From assembly GCF_013122565.1 (NCBI RefSeq), contig NZ_CP053258.1: 64,000 nucleotides of DNA, one strand, 5' to 3'. This DNA comes from Escherichia coli. GTDB taxonomy: Bacteria > Pseudomonadota > Gammaproteobacteria > Enterobacterales > Enterobacteriaceae. Below are positions 9,401-12,400 of this stretch, piece by piece (the first letter of the stretch is position 1; every line of letters starts with the position of its first letter). Made by a program: the position numbers.

Positions 9401-12400
9401 AAGGCGTTTATTACCGAGCAGTTTATCAACTGGTCGCTCTCTGACTCGGTCACGCGCGTGGTGTTGACGATTCCGGCCCCTGCCGATGCCAACAGTGAAG
9501 AAGTGACGGAAATCCTGCTCACCGCAGCGCGTCGCTGCTCGCTGGTGATCGACAACCCGGCACCGGAAGTCTTCCTGGTGGATCTGCAACAGGGGATTCA
9601 GATTTTCGAGCTGCGTATTTACGCCGCTGAGATGGGTCACCGTATGCCGCTACGCCATGAGATCCACCAGCTAATTCTGGCAGGCTTCCATGCCCACGGT
9701 ATCGATATGCCATTCCCGCCCTTCCAGATGCGTCTGGAAAGCCTGAATGGTAAACAAACGGGGAGAACATTAACTTCTGCGGGCAAAGGTCGTCAGGCGG
9801 GAAGTTTGTAATGCATGAAGCTGCCAAATGATGTCAACGTGGCTCATTTAGCAGCTTAACATCATCTTCAGTTATCACCGGCCCTGGAGAGTATCATCCA
9901 TACGCATTACTTCCAGACAACTCATCGCCGGAGAGACGATGAGTTGCAGGATTTCATATGATCAGTCGAGAGCTAACTCAGGTTTGTTCGCCATGCGACT
10001 GCAATAGTTCTGGTAAATCGCCATCGCTAACAGCGAGAAGAAGACAGGGCCGCCAATCATCCACAATGTGCTGTCCCAGTCTCCGGCTTCAACCACAGGT
10101 TGAATGATGGTGAAGACGTTCGCAAATGTCACCACCAGTACGACAACCACTGTTGCGATCATTGCCGACATACGCGTTTTGAAAATCACAAACGGTCTGT
10201 CGAGATCCTGACGTGCTTTAAAGAATGGGAAAGCCAGCGCGAGGAACAGGTAAGGAAGCGTCATAGACACGTTCGCCATCAGCGTCAGTTTGTTAAAGAA
10301 CGCCGATGCGGTGCCACCGCCAAACGAAACCAGCAGGATGAAGACAGTAACCAACCCGCACTGCATCCACATGGCGATAGAAGGCATACCCATCGTATTC
10401 AGGCGCGTCATCGGTTCCGGCCACAATGCTTTCGGCGTTCCCTGGATGATGGCTTTCAGCGGTGAATAGCAAAGCGTAAAGAACGCACCGGTATAAGCGA
10501 GGAACATCGAAAGTCCGGTAATACGCGCAAACCATACGCCCAGCGACAATGACGCTTCAGGTGACAAATGCAGTGCGTTACCCAGCGTCACCCCGAGGCT
10601 CTTCATCAGCACATAGGTAATATTGCCGAGGTTAACGGAACCATTACTTAATACCTGCTGCCAGTTTGTGCTGACGCCCCATAAAAATATTGCCAGCGAA
10701 TAACCGATTGAAATAACAATAGCGGCAAAAACAATACCTTTGGCAAAGTTCTTTTCTGGATTTTCCGTTTTATCGACCAGACCACCAACCGCTTCAATTC
10801 CGCCATAGGCAAAAATAGCAAATACCACAAACGATAGCATTGCCAGACCGGACTGATAACCTGGGTTCGGTGATGCAAGGAAATTAATATCCTGCGCGAA
10901 ATGCCCACCATTTAATAACAAAATAGTAATGCTTACTAACAGCAATACTAAATTCAGACACATTACTGCAATACCGCCCACCGCAGTAATGCGGGCAATT
11001 TTATTAATCCCCTTTGAAGCAACGACGGTGACCAGAATCATCCATGCCACTGCCAGCAGACCAACCACCTGCGTAGGCTCCAGTCCGGCAATACGCCAGT
11101 GCTGGGTCATGTCGCTACCATAGAGGAATGTTGAGAACGGTACCCAAACTTTCGCGGAGGTGCTCACCATCCAGATGATATAAGAGGAAAACCACATAAA
11201 CGTACCAATGAAGGCAAAACGTGGTCCGACACTATTATTCATCCAGGAATAGATACCGCCTTCTTCTTTGCGATAAGCAGCTCCCATTTCAGCCATCATT
11301 AAGGCGAATGGAATAAAGAATAACAATGCAGAAAATATATAAAAGGGAATCGCACTATAACCCATTAAGTAATAAGCCGATGGGCTATTGGCAAATCCAA
11401 ATACGGAAGTAAAGATCATCAATATGAGTCCTATCAGACTCATCTTTTTTATCGTGTGAGGCATGAAACCATCCTTCATTTCAGCGCGTGTATAAAACGC
11501 GCCCACTGAACTGCACTGCCCAACATTGAGCGGGCAGCGTAAAAACCAATACAGAATTGATACCTGGATGATATCAAATATCCAGTCTTAAATTGTGGCC
11601 TTTAGCGGAAAAATGAAAACATATGCTACAGAATGGCGCTTATCACGCCATTCTTCGCTGTTAATTCAGTAATTTTTCAGAATTATGCCCGGTCAACGCT
11701 AAAGGCGATGACTTCAGCCAGTGTCTCCGCGCCCAGCGCCAACATCACCAGACGATCAACGCCTAATGCCACGCCGGAACAGTCAGGCATACCGACTTTC
11801 AAGGCTTCAATCAGATTCTGGTCAATGGGGTGCTGCGGCAAACCGCGCGCCGCGCGCTTACGGTTATCTTGTTCAAAGCGTTGTTGCTGCTCACGGGCAT
11901 CCGTCAATTCATGGAAACCATTCGCCAGCTCAATACCTTTATAATAAACCTCAAAGCGTTCAGCGACCCGATGATCTTCGGTACTGATTTGCGCCAGTGA
12001 TGCCTGGCTGGCTGGAAAGTGGTACACAAAGGTCGGTTTTTCTTTGCCAATATTTGGCTCTACGCCAAAGGTAAACAGCAATTGTAGCAACGTGTCGCGG
12101 TCTTCTTCGGTATCAGCAACATTGCTCAAATCCAGTTTCGCTGCCACTTCCCGCAGTTGCGTTTTGTCGGCAGAGAGCGGGTCAATTTCCAGATAACGCA
12201 AGAAAGCTTGTTGATAAGAAAGGCTTTCTGCTGCCGGGCAGTCCAGCACCTGTTGTAAGAGATCGTCCACCTCGTTCATCAACCGGTACATATCATAGTG
12301 CGGTCGATACCACTCCAGCATAGTGAACTCAGGGTTGTGATAACGCCCCATCTCTTCATTACGGAAACTGCGGCACAGCTGGAATACCGGCCCGCAACCG

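What the first reader, a model, noticed from the sequence alone, without database searches (positions are those of the whole stretch)
9812..9961. Only 150 bp between convergent mscM and yjeM; no yjeN/yjeO
From memory, K-12 carries two small uncharacterised ORFs (yjeN, yjeO) between yjeM and mscM. Here the convergent stops are 150 bp apart, and the spacer holds two palindromes (TGATGTCAA...TTAACATCA and ACTCATCG-N9-CGATGAGT) that look like a bidirectional terminator. This is probably lineage-specific content that is present in K-12 and absent here.
Basis: partly seen in the sequence, partly recalled or inferred. Interest (0 to 1): 0.2.

Follow-up and report, generated by a model that had tools for sequence, protein, structure and literature searches.

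The report
Deletion scar where yjeN-yjeO were lost
The 150-bp gap between mscM and yjeM is what remains after an old deletion removed the small genes yjeN and yjeO; this allele is in 44% of complete E. coli genomes, so it is ordinary gene-content variation.

Summary
The mscM stop is at 9809-9811 and the yjeM stop at 9962-9964, so the spacer is exactly 150 bp. It contains no yjeN or yjeO, and both palindromes are real and non-random.

K-12 MG1655 does carry yjeO and yjeN here, in a 705-bp interval. The spacer is not an "empty site", though. Positions 9862-9901 (minus strand) are a frameshifted remnant of the yjeN 5' end, start codon included. The mscM-proximal hairpin contains the 3' arm of the yjeO/mscM hairpin seen in E. 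albertii and E. whittamii. So the short allele arose by deletion.

It is not specific to one lineage. Of 5,426 complete E. coli genomes:
- 2,394 (44%) carry this allele, among them O157:H7, W, C, HS and ATCC 25922.
- 2,153 (40%) have yjeN and yjeO.
- At least 717 (13%) have yjeO only.

All three states also occur in other Escherichia species.

"Bidirectional terminator" is not supported in the canonical sense, because neither hairpin is followed by a U-tract. The yjeM-proximal hairpin does keep its pairing through 5 compensatory pairs between two deep haplotypes, so it is probably a conserved 3' RNA stem-loop.

This is ordinary accessory-gene polymorphism and of low interest.

The parts
6488..9811 (+). 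mscM (miniconductance mechanosensitive channel), intact, 1107 aa; stop TAA at 9809-9811
   Evidence: ORF list. RefSeq annotation of a record identical over window 9300-10500. tblastn gives 100% identity over the C-terminal 299 aa.
9812..9961 (.). 150-bp spacer, the 'short allele' of the mscM-yjeM interval
   Evidence: Found at >=80% coverage in 2,394 of 5,426 complete E. coli genomes, with no annotated feature under it.
9818..9857 (.). Hairpin I1: arms 9818-9831 and 9844-9857, 14 nt with 1 mismatch, 12-nt loop. It starts 6 nt after the mscM stop. Read in the yjeM sense, its 3' arm plus flank (GGCAGCTTCATGCATTAC) matches the 3' arm of the yjeO/mscM hairpin of E. albertii and E. whittamii. Its 5' arm (AAGCTGC...) matches both yjeN codons ~16-18 and that hairpin's 5' arm.
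   Evidence: repeat. (dG -20.6 on + RNA, z -3.0; -23.4 on - RNA, z -3.9). (homology). (the 61-nt segment is in exactly 2,394 genomes and 100% identical in 2,382 of them).
9828..9865 (.). It overlaps I1 and competes with it, and is not the preferred fold.
9862..9901 (-). Remnant of the yjeN 5' end. ATG is at 9901-9899. A 1-nt deletion shifts the frame, giving MDDTLQGR* with the stop at 9877-9875. In the original frame it reads ...PVITEDD, against YjeN MDD(T/A)SRDP(A/V)ITEDE. Homology may continue to about 9846.
   Evidence: Alignments. Shuffle test: score 33 against 16.1 +/- 2.1, 0 of 500 shuffles as high, and the match falls exactly on the yjeN start of the K-12-type locus. Megablast hit to annotated yjeN in strain M172-1 (H77).
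9902..9916 (-). Decayed yjeN ribosome-binding region: GGAAGTAATGCGT here, against GGAAAGGAAGACGTT in full-length alleles and in the short allele of Escherichia sp. MOD1-EC7003.
9917..9947 (-). Hairpin I2: 13-bp stem (9917-9929 with 9935-9947) and 5-nt loop in the yjeM-sense RNA. It ends 14 nt downstream of the yjeM stop. It is present downstream of yjeM in all Escherichia alleles examined, whether or not yjeN follows.
   Evidence: (dG -23.7, z -5.1, 0 of 200 shuffles). (100% of cells paired across 6 distinct haplotypes; 5 pairs changed on both sides; slid controls 23-54% paired).
9962..11464 (-). yjeM (amino-acid permease family transporter), intact, 500 aa; stop at 9962-9964. The last ~12 codons (9963-9998) belong to a highly divergent haplotype A (...MANKPELALD*). 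K-12 carries haplotype B (...VAKNPQWAVE*).
   Evidence: AA_permease_2, E 7e-26. (16 mismatches to the K-12 type within 9963-9998, against ~2% elsewhere)..

Best explanation
The 150-bp spacer is a deletion scar. An ancestral Escherichia arrangement, yjeM - hairpin - yjeN - yjeO - hairpin - mscM, lost about 0.6 kb running from roughly codon 15-20 of yjeN to the end of yjeO.

What is left, read from yjeM towards mscM:
- the stem-loop that follows yjeM (I2);
- the decayed ribosome-binding site, start codon and first ~14 codons of yjeN, now frameshifted;
- a hairpin (I1) whose mscM-side arm is the old yjeO/mscM hairpin arm.

The break probably lies in a 5-7-nt direct repeat, (A)AGCTGC. This repeat is shared by yjeN codons 16-18 and the 5' arm of that hairpin, and a break there would rebuild a complete hairpin. 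That step is inferred.

All E. coli carriers share the same junction, so the deletion happened once. The allele now segregates at 44% across very different E. coli strains and in other Escherichia lineages, so it is old and has probably been moved by homologous recombination.

The two hairpins most likely act separately, as 3'-end RNA structures of the convergent mscM and yjeM transcripts. They could be barriers to 3' exonucleases or weak, non-canonical terminators. They are not one canonical bidirectional intrinsic terminator. The structure and its conservation are shown here. The function is inferred.
For: Shown:
1. yjeN remnant at the syntenic position and on the correct strand; shuffle test (0 of 500); BLAST hit to annotated yjeN (H77).
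2. The ribosome-binding site and ATG are still intact in the MOD1-EC7003 version of the same allele.
3. Outgroups with full yjeM-yjeN-yjeO-mscM: E. albertii L006, Escherichia sp. E1V33 L084, E. coli SCPM-O-B-8794 L014. A yjeN-like sequence lies between yjeM and mscM in S. enterica arizonae L037. yjeO-like genes lie next to mscM in Citrobacter and Enterobacter.
4. The mscM-side arm and flank of I1 match the E. albertii/E. whittamii yjeO-mscM hairpin.
5. Frequencies: short allele 2,394, yjeN 2,153, yjeO 3,021, yjeO-only junction 717, out of 5,426 genomes. Short plus yjeO-bearing genomes sum to 5,415 of 5,426.
6. Single junction: all carriers cover the spacer end to end, and the I1 segment occurs only in these genomes.
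7. Mosaicism around the site. The first ~800 nt of yjeM are 97-100% identical to the K-12 type in 100-nt windows, while its last 36 nt differ at 16 sites. Strain NT1F34 is identical to the window from ~9039 onward but K-12-like upstream of that.
8. I2 structure is conserved with 5 compensatory pairs.
9. Both hairpins are single-copy in the window and in genomes.
Against: - About 25-35 nt in the middle of I1 (roughly 9832-9860) have no unambiguous counterpart in any full-length haplotype sampled. Alternative alignments place the junction differently, so the exact breakpoints and the direct-repeat mechanism are not proven.
- No full-length progenitor carrying the long-loop I1 hairpin was found in E. 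coli.
- The compensatory changes in I2 come essentially from one contrast between two deep haplotypes, plus one change in E69. They count as few independent events.
- Neither hairpin has a U-tract and the terminator scan found none. No transcript-end data were examined, so any role in termination or RNA stability is untested.
Confidence: 0.85

Rival explanations
1. The short spacer is the ancestral, empty state, and yjeN-yjeO were inserted in the K-12 lineage as lineage-specific content.
For: 60% of complete E. coli genomes lack yjeN and 44% lack both genes. Several genera have yjeM directly next to mscM with a ~60-bp spacer, for example Citrobacter and S. enterica diarizonae.
Against: The spacer contains the yjeN start codon, ribosome-binding region and first ~14 codons, frameshifted. 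E. albertii and other Escherichia carry yjeN-yjeO at the same site. The short spacers of Citrobacter and Salmonella are unrelated REP-like hairpins, not this sequence. No mobile-element features flank yjeN-yjeO.
Confidence: 0.04
2. The deletion did not arise within E. coli. The short allele was imported by homologous recombination from another Escherichia lineage and then spread recently. This concerns the allele's history and is compatible with the scar model.
For: The allele is linked to a yjeM 3' end and I2 hairpin (haplotype A) that are 98-100% identical to E. albertii, while the last 33 nt of yjeM are only ~61% identical to the K-12 type. Its hairpin arm resembles the E. albertii/E. whittamii terminator, which is almost absent from E. 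coli (7 of 5,426 genomes). The 61-nt I1 segment is 100% identical in 2,382 of 2,394 carriers although the flanking genes differ by 2-3%. Diverged copies (89-93% identity) exist in E69 and MOD1-EC7003.
Against: No donor lineage with an identical allele was identified. Low diversity over 61 nt is weak evidence and could also reflect constraint on the hairpin. Trans-species retention of an old polymorphism explains the same data. No tree-based test was run.
Confidence: 0.35
3. The two palindromes together form a canonical bidirectional Rho-independent terminator shared by mscM and yjeM.
For: They lie between convergent genes. The stems are stable (dG -20 to -24 kcal/mol, z -3 to -5). I2 pairing is conserved.
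Against: No U-run follows either hairpin on either strand. The terminator scan found 0 sites. The two hairpins are 60 nt apart, each next to one gene. In full-length alleles they are separated by yjeN-yjeO, and I2 there sits between the yjeM and yjeN coding regions.
Confidence: 0.1
4. The palindromes are copies of a dispersed repeat family (REP/BIME or a MITE) that replaced the genes.
For: Spacers at the same position in Salmonella and Citrobacter hold GCCGGATG-type REP-like hairpins.
Against: I1 and I2 are single-copy in the window. They occur at one place per genome in nearly all of 2,394-2,669 genomes (median 1, highest 2). Rfam gives no match.
Confidence: 0.01

Closest known systems
E. coli K-12 yjeM-yjeN-yjeO-mscM locus (b4156-b4159)
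   Same: Same flanking genes in the same convergent orientation (epmA-yjeM ... mscM-psd). There is a hairpin directly after yjeM and another directly after mscM.
   Different: K-12 has a 705-bp interval with intact yjeN (104 aa, no Pfam family) and yjeO (104 aa, DUF2645). The window has 150 bp with only a yjeN 5' remnant. K-12 also carries the other haplotype of the yjeM C-terminus and I2 hairpin (CCCTATCG/CGATAGGG) and a different mscM-side hairpin (GCCGGATTGGTTCATCCGGC).
E. albertii / 'E. coli' ML35 full-length haplotype
   Same: Same yjeM 3' end (KPELALD*). The I2 hairpin stem and loop are identical; the I2-containing segment (spacer positions 102-150) is 98% identical to the window. The mscM-side hairpin arm and flank are the same type (GGCAGCTTCAyGCATTAC).
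   Different: It still has yjeN and yjeO. Its mscM-side hairpin has a shorter loop. The flanking genes are ~90-92% identical to the window, which is species-level divergence.
yjeO-only allele (for example ST131/O25:H4 strains, E. whittamii)
   Same: It is another deletion derivative of the same locus and is shared across species.
   Different: It is an independent internal deletion of yjeN on haplotype B, and yjeO and the K-12-type terminator are kept.
Bidirectional intrinsic terminators between convergent genes
   Same: Stable stem-loops lie in a short convergent intergenic region.
   Different: There are no flanking A/U tracts, and there are two separate hairpins rather than one shared one.

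Membership tests
Gene-deletion remnant (yjeN pseudogene fragment) | Sequence homology to the gene at the syntenic position and on the same strand | tested here: met
   9862-9901(-) aligns to the first ~41 nt of yjeN directly downstream of the shared I2 hairpin. Score 33 against 16.1 +/- 2.1 in 500 shuffles, none as high.
Gene-deletion remnant (yjeN pseudogene fragment) | Reading frame disrupted and the rest of the gene missing | tested here: met
   A 1-nt deletion gives MDDTLQGR*. tblastn finds no YjeN or YjeO in the window.
Gene-deletion remnant (yjeN pseudogene fragment) | Intact gene present at the same site in relatives and outgroups | tested here: met
   K-12. 2,153 E. coli genomes. E. 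albertii and Escherichia sp. E1V33.
Canonical (bidirectional) Rho-independent terminator | G+C-rich stem-loop | tested here: inconclusive
   The I2 stem has 13 bp including 6 G-C pairs and 2 G-U pairs, dG -23.7. The I1 stem is A/U-rich, dG -20.6 to -23.4.
Canonical (bidirectional) Rho-independent terminator | U-tract immediately 3' of the stem, on both strands for a bidirectional one | tested here: not met
   The tails are AACAUCAUCUUC / CAUGCAUUAC for I1 and CAGGAUUUCAUA / CUGGAAGUAAUG for I2. The scan found 0 terminator-like sites.
Canonical (bidirectional) Rho-independent terminator | Transcripts end at the hairpin | not testable with these tools
   No 3'-end mapping data are available here.
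Structured RNA element conserved by selection (I2) | Pairing kept through compensatory changes | tested here: met
   13 pairs, 100% paired in 6 distinct haplotypes, 5 pairs changed on both sides, against 23-54% paired when the partner is slid. Caveat: this is essentially two deep haplotypes, so few independent events.
REP/BIME or other dispersed palindromic repeat | Many copies per genome | tested here: not met
   At most two places per genome, median one. Unique in the window.
Known RNA family (Rfam) | Covariance-model match | tested here: not met
   No match with E<=1 in 9600-10200.

The most novel reading that the evidence does not exclude
Two linked ideas remain possible.

First, the three alleles (yjeN+yjeO, yjeO only, neither) are shared by several Escherichia species. 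They may be kept by balancing or niche-dependent selection on a small envelope-related module. Published hints: yjeO is reported as induced on sigma-E overexpression (PMC2731931) and as an accessory gene associated with growth in milk (PMC11390585).

Second, the rebuilt, almost invariant I1 hairpin of the short allele may be a newly formed functional 3'-end or regulatory RNA element for mscM, not a neutral leftover.
Probability: 0.07. Interest if true: 0.35.

Novelty: already known. Interest (0 to 1): 0.12.

Why it matters
It matters little beyond bookkeeping.

It shows that yjeN and yjeO are accessory genes, not core genes, with a three-state polymorphism at one fixed chromosomal site. It also shows that allele frequency is a poor guide to ancestry here, because the sequence remnant gives the direction of change.

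For annotation, 9862-9901 could be flagged as a yjeN pseudogene fragment in about 2,400 complete genomes where nothing is annotated now.

For anyone studying the uncharacterised YjeN/YjeO pair, natural knock-outs exist in many standard strains (W, C, HS, B derivatives, O157:H7, ATCC 25922). The conserved stem-loop after yjeM is a small candidate for 3'-end mapping studies.

Tried and rejected
- Terminator and promoter scan of 9600-10200: no terminator-like site, and one weak promoter-like site inside yjeM.
- Rfam at E<=1: nothing.
- NCBIfam and PADLOC on YjeN and YjeO: nothing. Pfam finds only DUF2645 for YjeO. A defence-system or toxin-antitoxin reading of the lost genes therefore has no support.
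- Placing the exact deletion junction: global alignments with cheap long gaps and MAFFT give unstable, mutually inconsistent placements for ~9832-9860. Only the outer anchors are reliable (yjeN up to GAAGATGA; hairpin arm from GGCAGCTTC).
- Looking for a full-length progenitor in E. coli with the I1-type hairpin next to yjeO: none found. The I1 segment occurs only in short-allele genomes. The E. albertii-type hairpin next to yjeO occurs in only 7 records, of which the three with >=99% identity include the albertii-like ML35 record.
- REP or MITE origin of the palindromes: rejected because they are single-copy.
- Relocation of yjeN/yjeO elsewhere in the window: not found.
- Literature: no paper found on this indel. 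Only incidental mentions of yjeN and yjeO.
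Full report
**1. Observation**

The window carries rsgA, psd and mscM on the + strand, with mscM at 6488-9811. yjeM (stop at 9962-9964, start at 11464) and epmA converge on them from the - strand. The interval 9812-9961 is exactly 150 bp.

tblastn with K-12-type YjeN and YjeO finds nothing there or anywhere else in the 64-kb window. A RefSeq K-12 MG1655 record shows mscM, 28 bp, yjeO, yjeN (4-bp overlap with yjeO), 51 bp, yjeM.

The second palindrome is a perfect 10-nt inverted repeat at 9918-9927 and 9937-9946. However, it overlaps a stronger 14-nt repeat, I1 (9818-9831 and 9844-9857), and the minimum-energy folds use I1. All folds beat dinucleotide shuffles, with z from -3.0 to -5.1.

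**2. What the spacer is made of**

I aligned the spacer with three other E. coli alleles and with Escherichia outgroups. It has four parts, read in the yjeM sense.

- *Hairpin I2.* It ends 14 nt after the yjeM stop (stem 9917-9929 with 9935-9947) and forms 13 bp in the yjeM-sense RNA (dG -23.7, z -5.1).
- *A decayed yjeN ribosome-binding region.* It is followed by the yjeN start codon (ATG at 9901-9899) and the first ~14 codons. The remnant reads ATGGATGATACTCTCCAGGGCC-GGTGATAACTGAAGATGA. K-12-type yjeN reads ATGGATGACACCAGCCGGGACCCGGCAATAACCGAAGATGA. A 1-nt deletion gives MDDTLQGR*.
  - A local alignment of 9846-9903 against the whole K-12-type yjeN-yjeO interval lands exactly on the yjeN start. 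The score is 33 against 16.1 +/- 2.1 for 500 shuffles, none as high.
  - In Escherichia sp. MOD1-EC7003 the same short allele still has the intact yjeN ribosome-binding site, GGAAAGGAAGACGTTATGG.
- *About 25-35 nt (roughly 9832-9860) of ambiguous origin.*
- *The mscM-side arm of I1 and its flank.* GGCAGCTTCATGCATTAC matches the 3' arm and flank of the hairpin that follows yjeO in E. albertii and E. whittamii, CGGCAGCTTCA(C/T)GCATTAC.

The 5' arm of I1, AAGCTGC, resembles two things. One is yjeN codons 16-18 (AGGGAGCTGC in strain M172-1). The other is the 5' arm of that hairpin (GAAGCTGCC). I therefore infer a deletion between these short direct repeats, which would rebuild a full hairpin. This step is inference. 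Alignments of the middle segment are unstable, and no full-length progenitor with the long I1 loop was found.

**3. Direction of change**

A cheap DNA-pattern scan of one genome per species, using a conserved MscM motif, followed by tblastn mapping, gave the following arrangements.

| Arrangement | Where found |
|---|---|
| yjeM-yjeN-yjeO-mscM | E. albertii, Escherichia sp. E1V33, the E. coli representative SCPM-O-B-8794 |
| yjeM-yjeO-mscM | E. whittamii |
| 150-bp-type short allele | 'E. coli' E69 (89% identical spacer), Escherichia sp. MOD1-EC7003 (93%) |
| yjeN-like sequence between yjeM and mscM | S. enterica subsp. arizonae |
| yjeO-like genes (45-53% identity) next to mscM | several Citrobacter and Enterobacter |
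| yjeM next to mscM, ~60-bp unrelated REP-like spacer | several Citrobacter, S. enterica subsp. diarizonae |
| epmA directly next to mscM | many genera, for example Klebsiella and Raoultella |

Together with the remnant, this makes the short state derived by deletion. It is not an empty ancestral site.

**4. Population frequency**

Counts are among 5,426 complete E. coli genomes.

| State | Genomes | Share |
|---|---|---|
| 150-bp spacer, >=80% coverage | 2,394 | 44.1% |
| yjeN present | 2,153 | 39.7% |
| yjeO present | 3,021 | 55.7% |
| yjeO-only junction | 717 | 13.2% |

- The yjeO-only group includes O25:H4 and a strain named ST-131.
- Short plus yjeO-bearing genomes sum to 5,415 of 5,426.
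- The diagnostic left 61 nt of the spacer occurs in exactly the same number of genomes (2,394), never next to yjeO, and is 100% identical in 2,382 of them.
- Carriers include O157:H7, O103:H2, O145, W, C, HS, a NEBExpress B-strain derivative, ATCC 25922 and an ST69 isolate.
- All carriers share the same end-to-end spacer, which implies one deletion event. By my own knowledge of these strains they span several phylogroups, but that was not tested here.

**5. A second, linked polymorphism**

The last ~12 codons of yjeM plus I2 exist as two deep haplotypes.

- *Haplotype A* (the window, E. albertii, and ~270-290 E. coli that still have yjeN-yjeO, such as M172-1) ends ...MANKPELALD*.
- *Haplotype B* (K-12, E. 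whittamii, E1V33) ends ...VAKNPQWAVE*. It resembles the Salmonella and Citrobacter C-termini.

The window differs from the K-12 type at 16 sites within 9963-9998, against ~2% elsewhere. The first ~800 nt of yjeM are 97-100% identical to the K-12 type in 100-nt windows. Strain NT1F34 is identical to the window from ~9039 onward but K-12-like upstream of that. These mosaics point to homologous recombination around the site.

Between the haplotypes the I2 stem keeps 100% pairing, with 5 pairs changed on both sides. Slid controls pair at 23-54%. Structure therefore appears to be maintained, although this rests on few independent events.

**6. Function**

Neither hairpin has a U-tract on either strand, and the terminator scan finds none. 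Rfam finds nothing. Both hairpins are single-copy, so they are not REP-type repeats.

The best reading is two separate 3' stem-loops. I2 serves yjeM; in full-length alleles it lies between the yjeM and yjeN coding regions. I1 serves mscM and formerly also yjeO. They would act as non-canonical terminators or as exonuclease barriers. This is inference and needs 3'-end mapping.

The lost genes are uncharacterised. YjeO is a DUF2645 protein. YjeN matches no Pfam, NCBIfam or PADLOC model. The literature gives only incidental mentions:
- yjeN yjeO is listed as a unit, with yjeO 2.6-fold up on sigma-E overexpression (PMC2731931).
- yjeO is an accessory gene associated with growth in milk (PMC11390585).
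- yjeN is among the unstudied genes of E. coli (PMC9976479).

**7. Verdict**

It is wrong on three points. The variation is not lineage-specific. The implied direction is reversed, because the genes were lost here and not gained in K-12. The hairpins are not a canonical bidirectional terminator.

This is an ordinary, common accessory-gene deletion polymorphism. It has a neat scar and some trans-species sharing. Interest is low.

Noticed in passing
window 9963-9998 (yjeM 3' end); L003 and L091 for comparison: The last ~12 codons of yjeM exist as two deeply divergent haplotypes in E. coli: MANKPELALD* and VAKNPQWAVE*. There are 16 differences in 36 nt against ~2% in the rest of the gene. The window type is shared with E. 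albertii. The K-12 type resembles Salmonella and Citrobacter.
   Followed up: partly
L090 (NZ_CP025747.1, 'Escherichia coli strain ML35'): At this locus the record is 99.2-99.5% identical to E. albertii NBRC 107761 and only ~90-92% identical to the window's E. coli sequence. The record may be a mislabelled E. albertii or may carry an imported segment. Two SCPM-O-B records (9504, 7615) behave the same way.
   Followed up: partly
hits H161 (NZ_CP022959.1) and H256 (NZ_CP043852.1): Two records both labelled E. coli ATCC 8739 carry different alleles. One has yjeO and the other has the short spacer. At least one label or lineage is questionable.
   Followed up: no
L037 (S. enterica subsp. arizonae CCUG 6322T) ~1700-2004: A yjeN-like sequence (62-64% aa identity) lies between yjeM and mscM without yjeO. 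It is split into two overlapping tblastn segments, which suggests a frameshifted pseudogene.
   Followed up: no
L081 (CACSKA010000007.1, 'Chryseobacterium sp. 18061'): This contig encodes Enterobacteriaceae-type MscM (91%) and YjeM (80%). It is probably contamination or a mislabelled assembly.
   Followed up: no
L019 (Enterobacter sp. ENT03) 8940-9323: A second, partial epmA copy (residues 213-340, 88% identity) lies between yjeM and a yjeO-like gene. This points to a local duplication or rearrangement in the same variable interval.
   Followed up: no
window 9806-9866 across E. coli genomes: The mscM-side 61 nt of the short allele is 100% identical in 2,382 of 2,394 carriers, although the flanking genes differ by 2-3% between the same genomes. 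This could mean recent spread or constraint on the hairpin.
   Followed up: partly
hit H76 (NZ_CP033605.1, O157:H7 strain TR01): Only spacer positions 43-130 match as a single piece, so the spacer may be interrupted or rearranged in this strain.
   Followed up: no
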